Source: Candidatus Helarchaeota archaeon
GTDB taxonomy: Archaea > Asgardarchaeota > Lokiarchaeia > Helarchaeales > RDOG01
Assembly: GCA_029838215.1 (NCBI GenBank)
Contig: JALGVI010000054.1
Location: 1-19,822 of the forward strand
Direction: 5' to 3'
DNA length: 19,822 nucleotides
Part shown: piece by piece, positions 3,622 to 17,370 of the stretch
How the letters are laid out: the number at the start of each line of letters is the position of its first letter
Position numbering within the stretch: position 1 is the first letter of the stretch
The notes under the pieces: model-generated
What the model was told of the DNA's origin: nothing
Seen by the model: only the letters and a program-made list of their open reading frames with translations
Database searches by the model: none
Translations under genes and position numbers: made by a program

Positions 3622-4377
3622 ATGATCTACGATTTCTATATTCTCGAACGGTCTGGAACGTGCATTTTTCACCAAGCATTTTCTGCACTTGATCGAAAGC
3701 AAGTCGAAGCTGATTTGATTTCGGGGTTTTTTTCTGCCATGTGTTTATTTTCGCGTGAAATTGCTGACAAGCATTTGGAAATCTTAGAATTGGAAGACGT
3801 TCGATTGGTCTTTACTGAAGATAAACTTGATAATCAAGAATACATATTTGTTGCTTTTGTCGATGAAAATGAAAGTGTCTTGCAAATTCAGGACATATTA
3901 AAGAAAATTTCGAAAAAATTCTTTCAAAACTACAAGCATATCTTGAAAAATTGGAATAGAGATACCGAGATTTTTACCGATTTCCAAAAACAAATCGAAC
4001 TGATCATCATCAAGGCAGATATTGACCGATTCATGTTAATAGAAAAATTGGAAGAGATAGTCAAGATTGAACAGCAAACACACCTTGAAGGACTTTCCAT
4101 ATATACTAGCAAAGGAGACCTCATGATTTCGAATATAGAGTTACCATCACCTCTTAAAAAATTCATTTCAAGAACCATTGAGTGTCAATTCAAGACATCC
4201 GTAAAAATTGATGAATTATTTTTCAAGTACGAGACGAAGTACATACTGATTAGACCAATAACCAATTCCCTAGTGGGCGTTTTTCTCACAGCACCGAAGA
4301 CACCCTTCAAACTTGGAATTTCACTTGCTGACAACTTGGTTAAAATCCTCAAGGAAAAAATTCAAGTCGCTCAATAA
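3622..4377 (+). CDS. Longin-like domain fused to a C-terminal roadblock/profilin-like domain (Asgard eukaryotic signature protein)
   Basis: Residues ~1-130 (MIYDFYILERSGTCIFHQAF...DLISGFFSAM..F..EI....LEILELEDVRLVF....YIFVAFVD) follow the longin/sigma-adaptin-like pattern. Residues ~138-250 (LEGLSIYTSKGDLMISNI...LFFKYETKYILIRPI...LVGVFLT....KLGISL) follow the roadblock/LAMTOR-like pattern. Confidence 0.7.
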   Translation: MIYDFYILERSGTCIFHQAFSALDRKQVEADLISGFFSAMCLFSREIADKHLEILELEDVRLVFTEDKLDNQEYIFVAFVDENESVLQIQDILKKISKKFFQNYKHILKNWNRDTEIFTDFQKQIELIIIKADIDRFMLIEKLEEIVKIEQQTHLEGLSIYTSKGDLMISNIELPSPLKKFISRTIECQFKTSVKIDELFFKYETKYILIRPITNSLVGVFLTAPKTPFKLGISLADNLVKILKEKIQVAQ

Positions 4378-4385
4378 AAGATTTT

Positions 4386-5339
4386 TTAGAAGCTCCGTTC
4401 ATTTCGGATTAATAGCAGTCTTGAGTGAAAAGCACAAATATTCGCTCCAACCTCAACCTTCCAAAATCGAGCTAATGGTTCGCATTTAGCCCTGAACACA
4501 TATAGGATCGGAATTTTTATCCCTTTTTCATCCCGATAATAGGCGAAGGTCTCAAAATTATTCTGTCCTTTGGAGATTACTAAGTCCGCTTCATCTAATG
4601 CCTTCAAAAATTCAGGGGAAGGGTTATTTTTCGTGAATCCGAGACAGAATCTTGCGGTTGGTATTATCGTAGAATTAGGAACTTCATCAAGATTGACTTG
4701 TCGGGCATCAACAACCGTGCAGTCATTGGAATACGGCGCATCCTTCACGACCAAAAATATTTCATTTCCCAACGATACCAAAAATTCAATGAGAATCTTA
4801 TCGAAGGCCACTTCACCAGCATTATCCAAGCAATAAAGGATTCTCTTTTTCCCGTCTTTCATGAGGTCAAATAATTGCGCGGTGTCGTCCAGATCTAGTC
4901 CGTGTTCCTTTATTTTTTTAAATTCCGTGAATAATGCTTCTGAATCTAATTCTACTTCGTGATCTCCCGTTGCAAAATCAATGATATTACCAATGATGCT
5001 TGCGAAAATGGCATCCCTAAGATGCTCTTCGGTCTTTCCCGATGATATGACTTTCCGTATCCGTGCTGCTACTTGGGTGCCGATCTCATTGCTTTGCTTT
5101 TTTTCTTCGATGAATGGATCGGGGCATCCCGTTTTATCTTCAATGATCTCCAACATTTCATTTGCAAGCTCAACGGTGAGAGTTTTGCTTGAAATGTCCT
5201 GCAACTTGCCATACATTTCTCGAACTAATTCTCGCTTTAAATCTTCGTCTTCCGTTGATCTCTGGATCATGTCTAAAGCTATTTTCGTCAAACAACTGGC
5301 ACAGCCAGGTCTCGTCCAGAGCTTCTTGTCCTTGTCCAT
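4386..5339 (-). CDS. DUF89/ARMT1-like damage-control metal-dependent phosphatase
   Basis: N-terminal PGCASC, DPFIEEKKQSN, GNIIDF, LDNAGEVAFD, VKDAPYSND, ISKGQNNFET and RAKC are the family motifs. Confidence 0.9.
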   Translation of the reverse strand: MDKDKKLWTRPGCASCLTKIALDMIQRSTEDEDLKRELVREMYGKLQDISSKTLTVELANEMLEIIEDKTGCPDPFIEEKKQSNEIGTQVAARIRKVISSGKTEEHLRDAIFASIIGNIIDFATGDHEVELDSEALFTEFKKIKEHGLDLDDTAQLFDLMKDGKKRILYCLDNAGEVAFDKILIEFLVSLGNEIFLVVKDAPYSNDCTVVDARQVNLDEVPNSTIIPTARFCLGFTKNNPSPEFLKALDEADLVISKGQNNFETFAYYRDEKGIKIPILYVFRAKCEPLARFWKVEVGANICAFHSRLLLIRNERSF

Positions 5340-5504
5340 TGTATTTCAAAGAACTGATGCTTTTTCTCTTTATGAATTTTTGTAGAATGATTGTGAGCGG
5401 GTAAGCCTGTCCGCAATGATCAAGCACGATCCCATCTTCTTGTAATATCTACATGATACTCTGATAATTAAGTCAAGAATTAAGAGATGCTTTTGGTGAA
5501 TGTC

Positions 5505-5864
5505 ATGAAAAAAGGTGACGTGGAAACCAAGATGACCATTTTGCATCACAAGATGAACGTACATCACCTGATTAAAGGTTCAATCCTTTGTAGGGACGAT
5601 GGAGTGCATGTATCTTCCAATATTCCCACGGATCTGGATGAAGGCAGAAAACTTGCAGCATATATTACCCATGCTTTCCGTTTGATAAATAAAATCAATA
5701 AAACTAATGAAGCAACGTTGAAATTCAATAACGGAATGCAGTTTTTCGTCAAGCACATTCCTGATAGAAAATTAATTTTAACGGCACTGACCGATAGGGC
5801 CGATTCTCCCCGGCTTTCCAAGTTAATGAACCATTTCTCAAACGAGTTTCAAAAAGCACTTTAA
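5505..5864 (+). CDS. Roadblock/LC7 (MglB/LAMTOR-like) domain protein
   Basis: IKGSILCRDDGVHVSSNIP..LD...KLAA...followed by a beta-hairpin (TLKFNNGMQFFVKHI...LILTALT) and a C-terminal helix. I chose the ATG at 5505 for the GGTGA SD at 5495. The ORF extends upstream to 5487. Confidence 0.65.
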   Translation: MKKGDVETKMTILHHKMNVHHLIKGSILCRDDGVHVSSNIPTDLDEGRKLAAYITHAFRLINKINKTNEATLKFNNGMQFFVKHIPDRKLILTALTDRADSPRLSKLMNHFSNEFQKAL

Positions 5865-5868
5865 TAAA

Positions 5869-5882
5869 TTTTTATTATTTTT
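5869..5882 (+). terminator. Candidate archaeal oligo-T terminator
   Basis: T-rich tract TTTTTATTATTTTT immediately after the stop at 5864. Confidence 0.3.
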
Positions 5883-5926
5883 CTCATTAAATGAATGCTA
5901 AGATGCGGAATTTTGAGGCTTTTTCC

Positions 5927-6661
5927 ATGTTAACATCAGACTTGGTTAAAAAACGCGCGAAAGAAATAGGTGCTGATTTAGTCGGTATTTCTTCTACTGA
6001 AAAAATTAATGAAAAAAGTCGCAAGGGTCATAAGGCTGAAGAATGGCTCCCGAATTCGAAGAGTGCGGTCGTATTTGCTCTTAAGTTGCTGGACGCTCCG
6101 CTTAATGGATTGCCATTTACCAGAAGTGCTTATGATTGGAATAAGGTTTATCTTGATGAAAAAATCACGAAAATCAGCATGGAACTTTGTCGCTTCTTTG
6201 AGAATGAAGATTTTCTTGCGTTGCCGATTACTTTTGAGCCACAATTATTCAATCCTGTTGTTGGTGACATTTCTGTCAAAGATGTTGCGGTTGAAGCTGG
6301 TTTAGGACACATTGGCTTATCTGGTCTCCTCCTGACTCCTGAATTTGGACCGCGAGTTCGTCTCGGGCTGGTGCTCACGACCGCAGAACTGACTCCCGAT
6401 ACTCCATTGCAGAAAAAAATCTGTCCATTAGACATAAACAAGTGCCGAAAGTGCATTGATGCTTGTCCTCCTAAAGCAATGTACATAAAAAAATCAAAAG
6501 TAAAAACCAAATGGGACCTATGCGCGTTGTACATGTATGAAGATTTGACAGCACTTCCTGTCACCATTAATGGACAAAACTTCATCAATCGATCAACAAG
6601 CTGGCATGCTTTTCATTGCGGGCTTTGCGTGAGCTCTTGTCCAATCGGTCGGAAGAAATGA
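5927..6661 (+). CDS. Epoxyqueuosine reductase (QueG)-like cobalamin/2x[4Fe-4S] protein
   Basis: AKEIGADLVGI, ISVKDVAVEAGLGHIGLSGLLLTPEFGPRVRLGLVLT, CP...CRKCIDACPPKA, WDLC and CGLCVSSCPIG. I chose the ATG at 5927 for the GAGG at about 5915. The ORF extends upstream to 5891. Substrate unknown. Confidence 0.75.
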   Translation: MLTSDLVKKRAKEIGADLVGISSTEKINEKSRKGHKAEEWLPNSKSAVVFALKLLDAPLNGLPFTRSAYDWNKVYLDEKITKISMELCRFFENEDFLALPITFEPQLFNPVVGDISVKDVAVEAGLGHIGLSGLLLTPEFGPRVRLGLVLTTAELTPDTPLQKKICPLDINKCRKCIDACPPKAMYIKKSKVKTKWDLCALYMYEDLTALPVTINGQNFINRSTSWHAFHCGLCVSSCPIGRKK

Positions 6662-12742: not shown

Positions 12743-12798
12743 ATTAACTAAAAGGTGAAGGGATATCGGTCTGAAGATATGGCAGGACTTGATATTTG

Positions 12799-13704
12799 AT
12801 GAGCTTTTATGATGATTACGATTATCTCCTTAAAATCATCGTTGTAGGAGACGGTGCAGTAGGGAAAACAGCACTATCCGTGAGATTCACACAAGGGAAG
12901 TTTCAAGACGATTATAAGATGACAATCGGTGTTGATTTTGCTGTTAAGATGATGGATGTCGATGGAAAACGTATAAAATGTCAGATCTGGGATACGGGTG
13001 GTCAAGAACGCTTTTCGTATCTTCGTCCTCTTTATTATAGTGGCGCGGTAGGTGGACTTGTAGTTTTTGACAAGACGTATCGTCCGTCTTTCAACAATAT
13101 CCCAAAGTGGTTCCAAGAGGTACGTGATAATCGGGGTCCTGATATTCCTTTGGTTTTATGCGGTAATAAAGTTGATCTCCCAGATTGGCAAGTCGATACG
13201 CAAGAGGCCGTCAACTTAGGTCGTTCTTACAAGGCACCTTATCATGATGTTTCAGCAAAGTCAGGTCAATCCGTAGATGATGCATTTGTAACATTGGTGA
13301 AGATGGTCATAGATCCGGGTGTTGCGAGGACGATACTCGAGGAAAAGACGACCCGTGATGTAGCAGAACAATCGATTGTAATGTCAGAAAGTTACAATAA
13401 GTATAATAGTTTTGCAAATCAAGCAACGGCTTATCTTGAGGCAGGAAATGTTATAGAGGCTTTGAATTCACTCAAGAAGTCTCTTTATTGGGCTCGCGAT
13501 GTTCAATTTGAACCAGGCATTAAATGGTGTGAGGACCAGATTGCTTACATTCAGAAGTTTTTAAAGCAGGAGAAAGAGGCACAGCAGGTTCAACGAGTAA
13601 GTGAGTTTATTTACAGATGTCCCGGTTGCAACGTTTATTTTAAGGTCAATCAAGTGGGTCAATATACGTGTCCCGATTGTGGAAGTGTCTTAGAACGAAT
13701 ATGA
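12799..13704 (+). CDS. Rab-like small GTPase with C-terminal TPR-like helical hairpin and C4 zinc ribbon
   Basis: G1 GDGAVGKT, G2 MTIG, G3 WDTGGQ, G4 NKVD, G5 DVSAK. RabF-like IGVDF, KCQIW, RFSYL, YYSGA, LVVFDKT. ANQATAYLEAGNVIEALNSLKKSL is TPR-like. CPGC-x13-CPDC forms the zinc ribbon. Confidence 0.9.
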   Translation: MSFYDDYDYLLKIIVVGDGAVGKTALSVRFTQGKFQDDYKMTIGVDFAVKMMDVDGKRIKCQIWDTGGQERFSYLRPLYYSGAVGGLVVFDKTYRPSFNNIPKWFQEVRDNRGPDIPLVLCGNKVDLPDWQVDTQEAVNLGRSYKAPYHDVSAKSGQSVDDAFVTLVKMVIDPGVARTILEEKTTRDVAEQSIVMSESYNKYNSFANQATAYLEAGNVIEALNSLKKSLYWARDVQFEPGIKWCEDQIAYIQKFLKQEKEAQQVQRVSEFIYRCPGCNVYFKVNQVGQYTCPDCGSVLERI

Positions 13705-13761
13705 GTTCCTCTAGGTCGCCAACTAACAGATTTAACCTTGCCTTACCTTGAGGAGAGTATC

Positions 13762-14784
13762 ATGGAACTTTCTTCAGTCCTTAAGGGTGTTGTTTATTCA
13801 CAATTTGGAGAAATGGGACCTGAGGCTTATATTTGGTTTCCTCAGGATGGTACACTTGATTCTGCGATATTGGGCTTAGTAAGCTTGAAATCGATAACAA
13901 TTCTACAGGGTGAAGAAGGGCAAGTTCCGGAAGATGTTGCTGTTGTTCCTTTTCCTAAATATAGGATGAATTCTATCGTGAGTTTTTTTTCGCTTCCCGA
14001 TACTGAAGCTCGTGGCGGAGAGCGAGATGCGACGCTTTGTATTTTATTTTCGGACAAATTTTCAAGCATTATTTACAAGCATTTAGAATTATTCAAGGAA
14101 CAGATGAACACGATCTCAAAAGAAATAGTCAAACGAGAGATGGAAGGAGATTTGGCAGGAAGCACAGCATTAATTCAAGAATTCCATGCATCCTTATTGG
14201 AGAATTTGCGGAGCTTGCAAGAGGCTGAAGTAGAAGAACCAAAGAAAGCTGATTTCAAATATAAAGTGATCGTTGTTGGAGACCCTGCAGTTGGTAAGAC
14301 GACTTTACTCTTGAGATACGTGGATAATTGTTTTAAAGAAATCTACATTCCGACTGTCGGAGTTAATGTTAGTACGAAACAAGTTGATGTTGGAACTTCG
14401 AAAGGACAAAACATTAACGTGACATTAAATCTCTGGGATTTAGCAGGTCAAAAGAGTTTTCTGCACTTGCGAAGAATGTATCTTGAGGGCGCAAATGCCG
14501 CTATCATAGTATATGATAGCACGAGGTCTGAAACATTTCAAAACATAAAATCTTGGTTTGAGGAAGTGAATTCAGTCAATCCAAAGATTTTAGGATACAT
14601 AATTGGGAACAAGATCGACTTGTTGAAACAACGAAAGGTTTCAACGAAGCAAGGCAAGACTGTTGCAGATGATTTGGGTTTTAAATTTCTCGAAACAAGT
14701 GCTAAAACAGGAAAAAACATTCCCACTCTTTTCAAAGATATTTCACGATCGATTTTAACTAAATACAAAGCAATTGGTACTTGA
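13762..14784 (+). CDS. uDENN/longin-like domain fused to a C-terminal Rab-like small GTPase
   Basis: N-terminal VVYSQF.EMGP...WFP...FFSLPDTEARGGERDATLCILF. GTPase G1 GDPAVGKT, G2 IPTVG, G3 WDLAGQ, G4 NKID, G5 ETSAK. I chose the ATG at 13762 for the AGGAG SD at 13751. Confidence 0.8.
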   Translation: MELSSVLKGVVYSQFGEMGPEAYIWFPQDGTLDSAILGLVSLKSITILQGEEGQVPEDVAVVPFPKYRMNSIVSFFSLPDTEARGGERDATLCILFSDKFSSIIYKHLELFKEQMNTISKEIVKREMEGDLAGSTALIQEFHASLLENLRSLQEAEVEEPKKADFKYKVIVVGDPAVGKTTLLLRYVDNCFKEIYIPTVGVNVSTKQVDVGTSKGQNINVTLNLWDLAGQKSFLHLRRMYLEGANAAIIVYDSTRSETFQNIKSWFEEVNSVNPKILGYIIGNKIDLLKQRKVSTKQGKTVADDLGFKFLETSAKTGKNIPTLFKDISRSILTKYKAIGT

Positions 14785-14788
14785 TAAA

Positions 14789-16519
14789 ATGGAGTTGACT
14801 GGAAAACCATTCTTGATCATGAAAAAAACGACACGGCGGATGGTTGGTTCTGCAGCACAACGTTTTAACATATTAACGGCTTGCGTTATTGCAGAATTGA
14901 TTCGCACGACGCTGGGTCCATTTGGTTTTGATAAATTAATTATAGATCCCGTAAATGAGATTATCATCTCCAATGATGGCTCCACGATAATGAAAAATTT
15001 TGAAGTCCGTCATCCGATGGCTAGAATTCTCGATAAATTGGTTCGTTCAATGGACGATACTGTTGGAGATGGTTCAAAAACAGCCTTAATTCTTGTCGGT
15101 GAACTTTTAAAAAAGGCACAGATTCAACTCATGGATGAAGGCGTGCATCCTTCAAGCATAATTGATGGTTTTGAGAAAGTTCTTGAATTTTTCATTGAAG
15201 AATCAGAAAAAATTGGGATGACCATCAATCCAAATGACGATGTTCTACTAAAAAAAGTTGCATTAACATCCATTGGTGGACGATTCGGACCAAAGGTCGA
15301 AGAGAAACTCGCAAGCATTGCGCTTCAGGCAATCCGCTATATCTCCGAAGAAAAAGACGGACAACTTCGCATTGATGTTAAAAACAACATCAACATCGTT
15401 GCGGTACGCGGCAAAAGCTTGAGTGAATCAGAAGTTATTGACGGAATGGCGATTGTTAAAGAACTGGTATCTCCCGAGTTACCGAAAAGAATCGTGGATG
15501 CTCGGATTGCTTTAATTGAACCGTCAATTGAGCATAAATTGTTTAAAATAGCCGATTCAAAGAATGTTCACTTGAAAATGACGGGTATTGCCGAGCAAAG
15601 ACAATTTAGGGACGAAGAATATCGAATATTAAAGGAAAAAGTCGAAAAAATCATTCAATCTGGTGCTAACGTGGTTTTTGCCCGACGAGAACTCCATGAA
15701 AAAATTCGTCCTTACTTGCGAAAAGCCAATATCTTGGCAGCAAGTTGGGTTCGGGGTTGGGATATGGAGAAAATTGCGCGGGCAACAGGTGCCAAGATCA
15801 TCAAGAACCTCGATTATTTAACACCTGAAGCATTAGGACACGCAGAAATCGTGGAAGAACGCGAACTAGCGCATAAAAATATCATTTTTATTCGCGGATG
15901 CAAGAATCCAAAGGCTGTTACCATTTTGCTTAGGGCAGGAATCGAACACGTGCTTTACGAAAGTGAACGTCGCTTGTACGATGCCATGTATGCAATTCGG
16001 GACGTGCTTTTGAAGGGAAAAATCGTTGGTGGAGGAGGTGCTTTTGAAATGGCACTTTCTAAAAGAATCCTCGAATACTCCCGGCAATTCTCGGGACGTG
16101 AACAGCTCGCCATTCAGACTTTTGCTCGTTGCTTGGAAATCATACCATTTACTCTCGCAGAAAGTGCAGGTCTCAATCCATTGGATGTGATAACTCGGCT
16201 GCGCCAAATTCATACTTCTGATAACGAAAACGCTCAATGGTATGGCGTGGATTTGGAAAACACCCTGCCTAAAAACATGTTAGAAGCTGGAATATACGAT
16301 CCGCTTTCTGTCAAGATCCAAGCAATTGGTGCAGCAACTGAAGTTGCTCTCATCATTCTTAGCATTGATGATGTCTTACATGCAAAACCTGCGGAGTACG
16401 AAAAAACCATTGAAGAAGAAGAATATGAAGAGGAAATGAAACAAAAAATGGCAGACATCAAGGAGCAAATACTCAGATCTCGCTCACCAACGAGAAGATT
16501 TACCTCTCCTCGCAAGTAG
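14789..16519 (+). CDS. Divergent group II chaperonin (thermosome/CCT-like) subunit
   Basis: AQRFNI...IRTTLGPFGFDK, SNDGSTI, HPMAR, VGDGSKTA, VIDGMAI, DARIALI, IARATGA, GCKNPKAVTILLRAG, ERRLYDA, VGGGGAFE, LAESAGLNP, GIYDPLSVK.QAI..ATEVA..ILSIDD. The ATG at 14789 lies 4 nt after the previous stop. Confidence 0.9.
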   Translation: MELTGKPFLIMKKTTRRMVGSAAQRFNILTACVIAELIRTTLGPFGFDKLIIDPVNEIIISNDGSTIMKNFEVRHPMARILDKLVRSMDDTVGDGSKTALILVGELLKKAQIQLMDEGVHPSSIIDGFEKVLEFFIEESEKIGMTINPNDDVLLKKVALTSIGGRFGPKVEEKLASIALQAIRYISEEKDGQLRIDVKNNINIVAVRGKSLSESEVIDGMAIVKELVSPELPKRIVDARIALIEPSIEHKLFKIADSKNVHLKMTGIAEQRQFRDEEYRILKEKVEKIIQSGANVVFARRELHEKIRPYLRKANILAASWVRGWDMEKIARATGAKIIKNLDYLTPEALGHAEIVEERELAHKNIIFIRGCKNPKAVTILLRAGIEHVLYESERRLYDAMYAIRDVLLKGKIVGGGGAFEMALSKRILEYSRQFSGREQLAIQTFARCLEIIPFTLAESAGLNPLDVITRLRQIHTSDNENAQWYGVDLENTLPKNMLEAGIYDPLSVKIQAIGAATEVALIILSIDDVLHAKPAEYEKTIEEEEYEEEMKQKMADIKEQILRSRSPTRRFTSPRK

Positions 16520-16530
16520 GTGTGTCTTTA

Positions 16531-17370
16531 ATGAAATATGCAATTAGTAATTGGATATACGGTTCTGAACCGCTTAGTAAGTCAATTGAACGGTTAATCC
16601 GGTATGATTATGATGGAATCGAAATTAAAGGAACCCCAGAGGAATATGACCTAAACCAAGTAAAGGATTTATTGTCCACGACAAAACTAAAAGTATCTTC
16701 GGTTTGTGGCATGTGGCCGTGGGATGCAAATAATCACATGAATAGTCATGACCTTGCAAATCCCGATCCAAAAGTCCGTGATCACGCCTTGGAATATGTT
16801 GAAAGATGTCTGGAATTCGGTAATAGCTTGGGTGCAAAATGCATGGTCGTAGTAGTAGGTGGTTGTGGCAAGACGATGCAATTACATGAGAAAGAGTGGG
16901 AATACGGCGTTGAAAACGTGAAAAAAGCGGCAAAAAAAGCACGAGATACAGGAGTGACGATAGCTATCGAACCGATCAACCGCTATGAGCTCTTCCTAAT
17001 GAATAATGTCGAACAAGGCTTGAGATTCGTCCAAGAGGTAAATGCAGAATCGGTGAAATTAATGCTTGATACCTTTCACATGAATATTGAAGAGGCGGAT
17101 CTTCCTGCGGCAATCCGGAAGGCGTCATCATCTCTCGTGCATCTACACGTGGCAGATAGCAACCGGCAGTCTGTTGGGCGGGGACATATTGACTTTAAAG
17201 GAATAATGCGGTCCTTGAAAGAAATCGAATTCTCCGGATATTTAGCGATGGAACCCTTACCTCCAACTTCAGCAAATGTATACGATCTTTCGCAATTAAA
17301 TCCTCACCTTCTCGATCAATATGCCGAAGAATGCATCGCTCAACTCAGGTTTTTTGAGAAAACTATTTAA
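16531..17370 (+). CDS. Sugar phosphate isomerase/epimerase, D-psicose/D-tagatose 3-epimerase-like (TIM barrel)
   Basis: YDGIEI, AIEPINRYE, MLDTFHMNIEE, HLHVADSNR...GRGHIDF and YLAME, with the metal ligands E, D, H, E present. I chose the ATG at 16531 for the AGGTG SD overlapping the previous stop. Confidence 0.9.
   Translation: MKYAISNWIYGSEPLSKSIERLIRYDYDGIEIKGTPEEYDLNQVKDLLSTTKLKVSSVCGMWPWDANNHMNSHDLANPDPKVRDHALEYVERCLEFGNSLGAKCMVVVVGGCGKTMQLHEKEWEYGVENVKKAAKKARDTGVTIAIEPINRYELFLMNNVEQGLRFVQEVNAESVKLMLDTFHMNIEEADLPAAIRKASSSLVHLHVADSNRQSVGRGHIDFKGIMRSLKEIEFSGYLAMEPLPPTSANVYDLSQLNPHLLDQYAEECIAQLRFFEKTI

What the first reader, a model, noticed from the sequence alone, without database searches (positions are those of the whole stretch)
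13762..14784. Folliculin/SMCR8-type uDENN signature fused in cis to a Rab-like GTPase
Seen: FFSLPDTEARGGERDATLCILF (DTEARGGER at 13999-14025), and an N-terminal strand followed by GP (YSQFGEMGP). Recalled: this matches the uDENN/longin motif of FLCN (IKDSLARGFQRWYSI) and SMCR8 (LYDLEARGFVRPFCM), where the Arg after ARG is the catalytic arginine finger of these GAPs. The equivalent Arg is present here (ARGGER). Inference: a self-contained GTPase-GAP module, or a GAP acting on the neighbouring Rab-like protein. DENN-like domains are reported in Asgard archaea, but an apparently intact arginine finger next to two candidate substrates is directly testable.
Basis: partly seen in the sequence, partly recalled or inferred. 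Interest (0 to 1): 0.75.

Follow-up and report, generated by a model that had tools for sequence, protein, structure and literature searches.

The report
Folliculin-type longin domain fused to Rab-like GTPase
This Asgard archaeal gene joins, in one 340-residue protein, a regulatory domain of the kind that switches off small GTPases in eukaryotic nutrient sensing (folliculin, NPRL2, SMCR8) and a Rab-like GTPase; it belongs to a large family whose parts are already described, and the fusion hints at which GTPase this domain acts on.

Summary
Window 13762-14784 (+) encodes a 340-aa protein with a GP motif (G19-P20) and the motif ARGGER (R84, R88; DTEARGGER at 13999-14025), followed by a complete Rab-like GTPase.

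The homology claim holds:
- Pfam Folliculin scores above its cut-off.
- AlphaFold2 gives a confident longin fold (pLDDT 94).
- After an Asgard longin (8YQG), the best solved matches are FLCN/FNIP, GATOR1 and C9orf72-SMCR8.

One correction is needed. Across 111 family representatives the near-invariant arginine is R84, the R of "ARG" (103 of 110 aligned residues). R88 is not conserved (11 of 115). GP and R84 are lost together (Fisher p 4e-7), as expected for a single functional site.

The family is common in the genome's class (43 of 43 genomes, several copies each). Most members are fused to Rab-like GTPases; a sister clade is fused to Rag-like GTPases.

None of this is new in kind:
- Asgard longin-GTPase fusions have been reported since 2016.
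- Asgard FLCN-type longins with a GP motif and an arginine finger were published in 2025, with the partner GTPase left open.

GAP activity, and whether it acts in cis, across a dimer, or on the neighbouring Rab-like gene, remains inferred. The one complex prediction gave no verdict. The scan had noted this only on this same stretch, not on other DNA.

The parts
13762..14784 (+). Whole gene: 340-aa longin-GTPase fusion protein (stop codon included)
   Evidence: ORF list, translation, exact 340-aa database record. A GAGGAGAG stretch at 13750-13757 precedes the ATG.
13762..14235 (+). FLCN/NPRL2/SMCR8-type longin domain, residues 1-158 (strand-strand-helix-strand-strand-strand-helix-helix)
   Evidence: AlphaFold2 pLDDT 94.4, pTM 0.90. 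Foldseek and VIA-align best matches: 8YQG, then FLCN, Lst4, GATOR1 and C9orf72/SMCR8. Pfam Folliculin 25.4 bits.
13816..13821 (+). GP motif (G19-P20) at the turn between strands 1 and 2
   Evidence: G in 106 and P in 103 of 115 aligned rows. The family profile aligns this stretch to SMCR8 58-80, which holds the published G68-P69 (PMC12290439).
14011..14016 (+). R84-G85, candidate arginine finger in the loop between strands 4 and 5
   Evidence: R in 103 and G in 100 of 115 rows. At least 90% conserved in alignment A1. Loop position from the model. Lost together with GP.
14023..14025 (+). R88, the second Arg of ARGGER; not conserved
   Evidence: R in only 11 of 115 rows.
14254..14766 (+). Rab-like GTPase domain, residues 165-335
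   Evidence: Pfam Ras E 5.5e-49. Best solved relatives are Rab21, Rab1A and Thorarchaeota Rab at E about 1e-34. No C-terminal cysteine.
14278..14301 (+). P-loop GDPAVGKT (residues 173-180)
14437..14451 (+). Switch II DLAGQ (residues 226-230) with the catalytic Gln
14608..14619 (+). NKID guanine-specificity motif (residues 283-286)
12796..13704 (+). Upstream neighbour: Rab-like GTPase with a helical and zinc-ribbon tail; a candidate alternative substrate
   Evidence: Pfam Ras E 2.2e-54 plus zinc-ribbon families. The same neighbour is present next to the 58%-identical ortholog.
14789..16519 (+). Downstream neighbour, 4 nt after the stop: thermosome/CCT-family chaperonin paralog
   Evidence: Pfam Cpn60_TCP1 E 1.2e-142. 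Exact 576-aa record starting at 14789. Same order in locus L012.

Best explanation
The gene encodes a two-domain protein of an Asgard (Promethearchaeota) archaeon. Residues 1-158 form a longin domain of the folliculin/NPRL2/SMCR8 'GAP-longin' kind. It carries both hallmarks of that kind: a GP motif at the turn between strands 1 and 2, and a near-invariant Arg-Gly (R84-G85) in the loop between strands 4 and 5. After two long helices and a short linker, residues 165-335 form a complete Rab-like GTPase (P-loop, switch I Thr, DLAGQ, NKID, SAK). Shown here: the homology, the fold, the motif conservation, the fusion, and that the family is common. Inferred: the longin domain is a built-in GTPase-activating module, and R84 reaches into a GTPase active site beside the catalytic Gln. 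The most probable substrate is the fused GTPase itself, either within the chain or, as longin GAPs work in pairs, across a longin-mediated dimer. That would make a self-timing switch, comparable in logic to the built-in arginine of G-alpha subunits. The upstream Rab-like protein is the second candidate substrate.
For: Homology and fold:
- Pfam Folliculin is above its cut-off in this protein and in two paralogs.
- AlphaFold2 gives a longin fold with pLDDT 94.4.
- Foldseek: 8YQG at E 1.7e-9, then GATOR1, the SEA complex, FLCN, SMCR8/C9orf72 and Lst4 ahead of DENND1, MglB and TRAPP.
- VIA-align: FLCN 8dhb_J Z 13.7 (rmsd 2.7 over 139 residues), Lst4 14.0, C9orf72 12.9, GATOR1 11-12.7. DENND1B scores 11.4, SNARE longins about 10, TRAPP about 9.5.
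- The profile's second-best hit in the whole PDB is the strand 1-GP-strand 2 stretch of SMCR8.

Motif conservation:
- G19, P20, P27 and R84 are near-invariant in 111 representatives.
- R84 and GP are lost together: 6 of 7 members without R also lack GP, against 3 of 98 members that keep R (Fisher p 3.6e-7). The losses fall in a few clades, so there are few independent events.

Link to GTPases:
- 65 of 111 representatives carry a P-loop GTPase after this longin. 58 are Rab-like and 7 are Rag/Arf-like with Pfam Gtr1_RagA at E about 1e-24.
- The Rag-fused members form one clade with 99% support. FLCN and NPRL2 are the GAPs of Rag GTPases in eukaryotes.
- The full-length model has pTM 0.84, so the two domains are placed in a defined arrangement.
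- The GTPase keeps its catalytic Gln and all G motifs.

Literature: PMC12290439 reports the same GP and arginine-finger arrangement in Asgard longins.
Against: No biochemical or structural test of GAP activity was possible. No coordinates were available, so the distance from R84 to the nucleotide site could not be measured, either in cis or in a dimer. Residue-level equivalence of R84 with FLCN R164, NPRL2 R78 and SMCR8 R147 rests on the Pfam match, the loop position and my memory of the human sequences, not on a superposition made here. Loss of R84 does not go with loss of the switch II Gln in the fused GTPase, so sequence shows no coupling between the two domains. The solved Asgard longin 8YQG keeps GP but lacks the Arg, so GP alone does not mark a GAP. 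Longin domains more often act as exchange factors or platforms than as GAPs.
Confidence: 0.5

Rival explanations
1. The longin domain is only a dimerisation and docking platform, like the C-terminal roadblock domain of Rag GTPases. R84-G85 and GP are conserved for folding or for binding some other partner. The protein is a Rab-like switch with an ordinary intrinsic GTPase rate.
For: Longin and roadblock domains are mostly platforms (PMC3747258, PMC10933270). 8YQG, the closest solved structure, is a dimer and lacks the Arg. Family members without the Arg keep an intact GTPase.
Against: A surface-loop Arg kept in 103 of 110 aligned residues, and lost together with the neighbouring GP motif, is not typical of a purely structural residue. 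The same two motifs define the GAP longins and are absent from non-GAP longins (PMC12290439).
Confidence: 0.25
2. The longin domain is a GAP for a different GTPase, first of all the Rab-like protein encoded 57 nt upstream. The fused GTPase controls or localises that GAP activity, as in a GTPase cascade.
For: The upstream Rab-like gene, this gene, the chaperonin and the TIM-barrel gene lie on the same strand, 2-57 nt apart. The same order is kept next to the 58%-identical ortholog. A Ras-like gene also adjoins the Hodarchaeota homolog. The genome holds about 67 small-GTPase ORFs.
Against: Other homologs have no such neighbour or sit in arrays of fusions. Fusion is the stronger and far more widespread link.
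Confidence: 0.15
3. The longin domain acts as a nucleotide exchange factor or a nucleotide-state sensor, as in DENN, Mon1-Ccz1 or TRAPP.
For: DENND1-Rab35 complexes are among the structural matches (Z 11.4). FLCN was once proposed to be a Rab35 exchange factor (PMC3438538).
Against: There is no DENN or d-DENN module. The exchange-factor longins rank below the GAP longins in both aligners. They lack the GP and Arg pair (PMC12290439).
Confidence: 0.07

Closest known systems
Asgard 'Folliculin/SMCR8 longin domain-containing' proteins with a GP motif and an arginine finger (Traffic 2025, PMC12290439)
   Same: Same domain kind, same two motifs in the same places, same phylum. This gene is a member of that class.
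   Different: That paper treats the proteins as longins and leaves the partner GTPase open (Arf-related or Rag were suggested). Here the domain is covalently joined to a Rab-like GTPase. In the family survey, 65 of 111 representatives are such fusions.
Eukaryotic longin GAP complexes: FLCN-FNIP2 (RagC/D), GATOR1 NPRL2-NPRL3 (RagA/B), C9orf72-SMCR8 (Arf, Rab8/11)
   Same: Longin fold, GP motif, an Arg in the loop between strands 4 and 5, and top structural matches (Z 11-14).
   Different: The eukaryotic proteins have the longin followed by DENN or other domains, act as heterodimers on a separate GTPase, and sit at the lysosome. Here there is no DENN module, the GTPase is in the same chain, and it is Rab-like. 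Sequence identity is only 7-16%.
Asgard longin- or roadblock-GTPase fusions (Lokiarchaeum, Klinger 2016 as cited in PMC4917890; MK-D1, PMC10933270; Liu 2020 preprint 10.1101/2020.10.19.343400)
   Same: Same architecture class: a small GTPase fused to a longin/roadblock-superfamily domain.
   Different: The passages I read in these papers do not connect the fused longin with the FLCN-type arginine finger. They describe the longin fusions chiefly for Arf- or Rag-like GTPases.
PDB 8YQG, longin domain of a Lokiarchaeota roadblock-longin protein
   Same: Closest solved structure (Z 19.4, TM 0.73, profile E 1.4e-17). It keeps the GP motif.
   Different: It has no Arg-Gly in the loop between strands 4 and 5, and it is fused to a roadblock domain, not to a GTPase.
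GTPases with a built-in arginine (G-alpha helical domain) and MglA-MglB
   Same: A regulatory element for hydrolysis is supplied in the same chain (G-alpha) or by a roadblock dimer (MglB).
   Different: Unrelated domains (G-alpha). MglB uses no arginine finger.

Membership tests
FLCN/NPRL2/SMCR8-type GAP longin domain | Longin fold (strand-strand-helix-strand-strand-strand-helix-helix) | tested here: met
   AlphaFold2 model with pLDDT 94.4 and pTM 0.90, secondary-structure elements in that order.
FLCN/NPRL2/SMCR8-type GAP longin domain | Closer in structure to GAP-complex longins than to SNARE, TRAPP, AP or roadblock domains | tested here: met
   VIA-align Z 14.0-11.2 for Lst4, FLCN, C9orf72 and GATOR1, against about 10 for Ykt6/VAMP7 and about 9.5 for TRAPP/AP sigma. 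Foldseek gives the same order. The margin is moderate.
FLCN/NPRL2/SMCR8-type GAP longin domain | Sequence-profile match to the folliculin family | tested here: met
   PF11704 scores 25.4 bits against a cut-off of 23.3, covering residues 72-128. Paralogs score 24.1 and 23.8 bits, and 0 of 14 control genomes pass the cut-off.
FLCN/NPRL2/SMCR8-type GAP longin domain | GP motif before or at the start of strand 2 | tested here: met
   G19-P20 are kept in 103-106 of 115 rows. This stretch aligns to the G68-P69 stretch of SMCR8.
FLCN/NPRL2/SMCR8-type GAP longin domain | Conserved arginine finger, equivalent to FLCN R164, NPRL2 R78 and SMCR8 R147 | tested here: inconclusive
   R84 is near-invariant and lies in the loop between strands 4 and 5, inside the Pfam match. 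No residue-level superposition could be made. The equivalence rests partly on my memory of the human sequences.
FLCN/NPRL2/SMCR8-type GAP longin domain | Arg-dependent GAP activity on a small GTPase | not testable with these tools
   Needs biochemistry.
FLCN/NPRL2/SMCR8-type GAP longin domain | Works as a pair of longins, only one of which carries the Arg | not tested
   Hints only. A tandem gene pair on contig C52 has one partner that lacks the Arg. Double-longin proteins have the Arg only in the second domain.
FLCN or SMCR8 proteins (longin plus DENN module, 'uDENN') | DENN and d-DENN domains after the longin | tested here: not met
   The longin is followed by a Rab-like GTPase. No DENN family appears in the Pfam scan.
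Rab-like small GTPase | Complete G1-G5 motifs with a switch II Gln | tested here: met
   GDPAVGKT, T198, DLAGQ, NKID and SAK are present.
Rab-like small GTPase | Best sequence matches are Rab proteins | tested here: met
   Rab21, Rab1A/B, Thorarchaeota Rab, Rab8 and Rab35 at E 1e-35 to 1e-31. Pfam Ras scores 166 bits against Arf 57 and Gtr1_RagA 25.
Rab-like small GTPase | C-terminal cysteine prenylation motif | tested here: not met
   The protein ends in KYKAIGT, with no Cys in the tail. PMC4917890 (Table 1) lists CAAX motifs and prenyltransferases as not found in Lokiarchaeum.
Rag GTPase architecture | Gtr1/RagA-type G domain followed by a roadblock dimerisation domain | tested here: not met
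   The domain order is reversed and the G domain is Rab-like. Gtr1_RagA gives only a partial match at E 1.9e-5. A sister clade of the family (P0093, P0099) does carry a Rag-type G domain.

The most novel reading that the evidence does not exclude
The fusions name the native substrates of the ancestral folliculin/NPRL2-type longin GAP. In Asgard archaea, the GAP domain and its GTPase (Rab-like here, Rag-like in a sister clade) would form single-chain or dimeric self-regulating switches. The eukaryotic pairs FLCN:RagC, NPRL2:RagA and SMCR8:Arf/Rab would then descend from such fusions by gene fission. The tandem and double-longin forms in which only one domain keeps the Arg would be precursors of the asymmetric FLCN-FNIP type of heterodimer.
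Probability: 0.2. Interest if true: 0.75.

Novelty: new member of a known kind. Interest (0 to 1): 0.45.

Why it matters
Longin-domain GAP complexes control Rag, Arf and Rab GTPases at the eukaryotic lysosome, and their origin is an open question. The 2025 survey that found GP and arginine-finger longins in Asgard archaea asked which GTPase they act on. This gene and its family give a genomic answer that can be tested directly. Most of these longins are covalently fused to a GTPase, Rab-like or Rag-like. A single soluble 340-residue protein with an R84A control could therefore show whether arginine-finger longin GAP chemistry predates eukaryotes. The gene itself is one of several copies per genome in its class and is not unusual there.

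Tried and rejected
- **Complex prediction.** Longin domain plus its own GTPase domain with GTP and Mg scored 0.00. The tool's verdict is 'no answer', so it counts neither for nor against binding.
- **Word-indexed homolog search** with the N-terminal 160 residues found only the protein itself. The exhaustive search was needed.
- **The search for related loci in genome contigs.** The single-protein query gave no confirmed relative.
- **Sequence searches of the PDB.** The single protein and the family profiles did not reach FLCN or NPRL2. Only 8YQG and, weakly, the GP stretch of SMCR8 were found. Coiled-coil hits to the long helices were ignored.
- **Loss of R84 versus loss of the switch II Gln.** No link was found.
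- **Pro at the third P-loop position (GDP..GKT).** It is not special to the fused GTPases; stand-alone Rab-like ORFs of the same genome have it too.
- **Supplementary sequences of PMC12290439** are not held. I could not check whether its 15 Asgard longins include fusions.
- **ESM Atlas look-alikes** scored under 0.9. They are unnamed Promethearchaeota clusters, one with NPR2 on 19% of members. This is a lead only.
- **The sigma-70 promoter scan** does not apply to an archaeon and was not used.
- **The family tree** is the quick version, not the finished careful search. Only starred branches were used.

Full report
**What is there.** The ORF at window 13762-14784 (+) encodes 340 residues. A database record of exactly this length exists. 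A GAGGAGAG stretch lies 5 nt upstream of the ATG. Pfam finds a Ras-family GTPase at residues 168-332 (E 5.5e-49). It also finds Folliculin (PF11704) at residues 72-128 with 25.4 bits, above the curated cut-off of 23.3. In the whole genome, three loci pass that cut-off. None of 14 control genomes does.

**Fold.** An exhaustive HMMER search with residues 1-160 found 113 cluster representatives. With an 85-sequence alignment (A1), AlphaFold2 gives a confident model with pLDDT 94.4 and pTM 0.90. The order of elements is strand-strand-helix-strand-strand-strand-helix-helix, which is a longin domain. GP sits at the turn between strands 1 and 2. R84 sits in the loop between strands 4 and 5.
- Foldseek against the PDB puts the Lokiarchaeota longin 8YQG first (E 1.7e-9, TM 0.73). 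GATOR1, SEA-complex, FLCN, SMCR8/C9orf72 and Lst4 chains follow, ahead of DENND1, MglB and TRAPP.
- VIA-align gives 8YQG Z 19.4, Lst4 14.0, FLCN 13.7 (rmsd 2.7 over 139 residues), C9orf72 12.9 and GATOR1 11-12.7. DENND1B scores 11.4, SNARE longins about 10, and TRAPP or AP sigma about 9.5.
- A profile of the family core has, as its second-best hit in the whole PDB, the strand 1-GP-strand 2 stretch of SMCR8 (residues 58-80, E 0.6). That stretch holds the published G68-P69 motif (PMC12290439).

**Which arginine.** In the HMM alignment of all family domains, R84 is R in 103 of 115 rows, with 5 gaps. G85 is G in 100 rows, G19 in 106, P20 in 103 and P27 in 105. R88 is R in only 11 rows. The conserved arginine is therefore the R of 'ARG', not the later one. 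The invariance reported for alignment A5 follows from how I selected its rows and is not used as evidence. By my own recollection of the human sequences, FLCN R164 and NPRL2 R78 are the arginines at this position. I could not make a residue-level superposition. Members without R84 have nearly always lost GP as well: 6 of 7, against 3 of 98 members that keep R (Fisher p 3.6e-7). These losses fall in a few clades, so the number of independent events is small.

**The GTPase half.** All G motifs are present, including the switch II Gln. The best solved relatives are Rab21, Rab1, the Thorarchaeota Rab, Rab8 and Rab35 at E about 1e-34. There is no C-terminal cysteine. The full-length model, built with a 47-sequence alignment, has pLDDT 93.0 and pTM 0.84. 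This suggests a defined arrangement of the two domains, but no coordinates were available to inspect it.

**The family.**
- Of 111 representatives, 58 have a Rab-like P-loop domain after the longin, 7 have a Rag/Arf-type one (GLDxxGK), and 46 have none.
- The members of about 470 residues match Pfam Gtr1_RagA at E about 1e-24 and also match Folliculin weakly. They form one clade with 99% support.
- Other forms include stand-alone longins, longin plus coiled coil plus a lysine-rich tail, double longins, longin-Rab-TIR and longin-TrmB.
- Named homologs come from Hodarchaeota and Helarchaeota genome bins, and NCBI calls them 'Rab family GTPase'.
- In a sample of 201 genomes of the phylum, 98 have a match. 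Within the window's class the count is 43 of 43, with 2-6 copies each.
- The window's own genome has five copies, four of them fused to Rab-like GTPases, among about 67 small-GTPase ORFs.

**Context.** Four genes lie on the same strand, 2-57 nt apart: a Rab-like GTPase with a zinc-ribbon tail, this gene, a thermosome/CCT paralog and a xylose-isomerase-like TIM-barrel gene. The same order is found next to the 58%-identical ortholog. More distant homologs show other contexts: an adjacent Ras-like gene, an array of four fusions near a chaperonin gene, or no such neighbours.

**Mechanism.** Shown: homology to the GAP-type longins, conservation and joint loss of the two motifs that line their catalytic pocket, and repeated covalent linkage to small GTPases, including the Rag type on which FLCN and NPRL2 act in eukaryotes. 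Inferred: R84 is an arginine finger and the fused GTPase is its substrate, in cis or across a longin dimer. I put about 0.5 on this reading. The alternatives are about 0.25 for a pure platform role, 0.15 for action on another GTPase such as the upstream one, and under 0.1 for an exchange-factor role. Loss of R84 does not go with loss of the switch II Gln, so sequence gives no sign of coupling between the two domains.

**What is known already.**
- Lokiarchaeal longins fused to GTPases were reported in 2016 (as cited in PMC4917890).
- NPRL2-like and FLCN-like longins were described as abundant in Asgard archaea in 2020 (preprint 10.1101/2020.10.19.343400).
- Longin-GTPase architectures of MK-D1 were modelled in 2024 (PMC10933270).

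This gene is therefore a new member of a known kind. The modest addition is that the arginine-bearing longin is, in most family members, fused to a GTPase, Rab-like here. That points to the substrate and offers a simple test protein.

**Earlier notes of this scan.** These concern this same stretch only. The family had not been noted on other DNA.

Noticed in passing
Own genome contig C52, about 4228-6440 (loci L008 1480-2523 and L009; outside the window): Two longin-Rab-like fusion genes lie in tandem. The first keeps GP and the Arg (KRGG). The second keeps GP but reads AISG where the Arg-Gly should be, and its P-loop is GDVAVGKT instead of GDP. This looks like an asymmetric pair in the manner of FLCN-FNIP or NPRL2-NPRL3.
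   Followed up: partly
Own genome contig C74 (locus L003 610-1917, minus strand; outside the window): A 435-aa paralog has the same GP and ARG longin but no GTPase. Instead it has a long helical region and a C-terminal tail made almost wholly of lysines, possibly for binding membrane or nucleic acid.
   Followed up: no
Family members P0093, P0097, P0099, P0116 (about 470 aa; other genomes): The same arginine-bearing longin is fused to a Gtr1/RagA-type GTPase (Pfam E about 1e-24). That puts a FLCN/NPRL2-like domain and a Rag-like GTPase in one chain.
   Followed up: partly
Family members P0053, P0062, P0081 (other genomes): These are double-longin proteins. In P0062 and P0081 the first longin lacks the Arg (A or Q in its place) and the second carries ARG. 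They resemble a single-chain version of an asymmetric longin heterodimer.
   Followed up: partly
Family member P0017 (525 aa; other genome): Longin plus Rab-like GTPase plus a C-terminal TIR domain (Pfam TIR_2, E 7e-19).
   Followed up: no
window 12796-17370 and locus L012 3880-8687: Four genes are tightly spaced on one strand: a Rab-like GTPase with a zinc ribbon, the longin-GTPase fusion, a thermosome/CCT paralog and an AP_endonuc_2 TIM barrel. The order is kept next to a 58%-identical ortholog. In this window and in the contexts of three homologs (L012, L013, L015), a CoA-ligase-type gene (Succ_CoA_lig family in the homologs) and a phosphodiesterase/sulfatase-family gene lie nearby.
   Followed up: partly
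window 3622-4377 (+): This 251-aa ORF was flagged elsewhere in the scan as a longin-roadblock fusion. It has no sequence match in the PDB at E 0.01, and it does not match 8YQG, which comes from a roadblock-longin protein.
   Followed up: partly
Own genome, whole (G000): About 67 ORFs match a Rab-like GTPase profile. Several have N-terminal extensions of 125-180 residues that the FLCN-type longin profile does not recognise. These may be fusions to other longin or roadblock types.
   Followed up: no
Locus L002 3-1142 (own genome contig C86; outside the window): The gene just upstream of the third longin-GTPase paralog looks by eye like an ArsA/Get3-type ATPase. This was not checked with any tool.
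   Followed up: no
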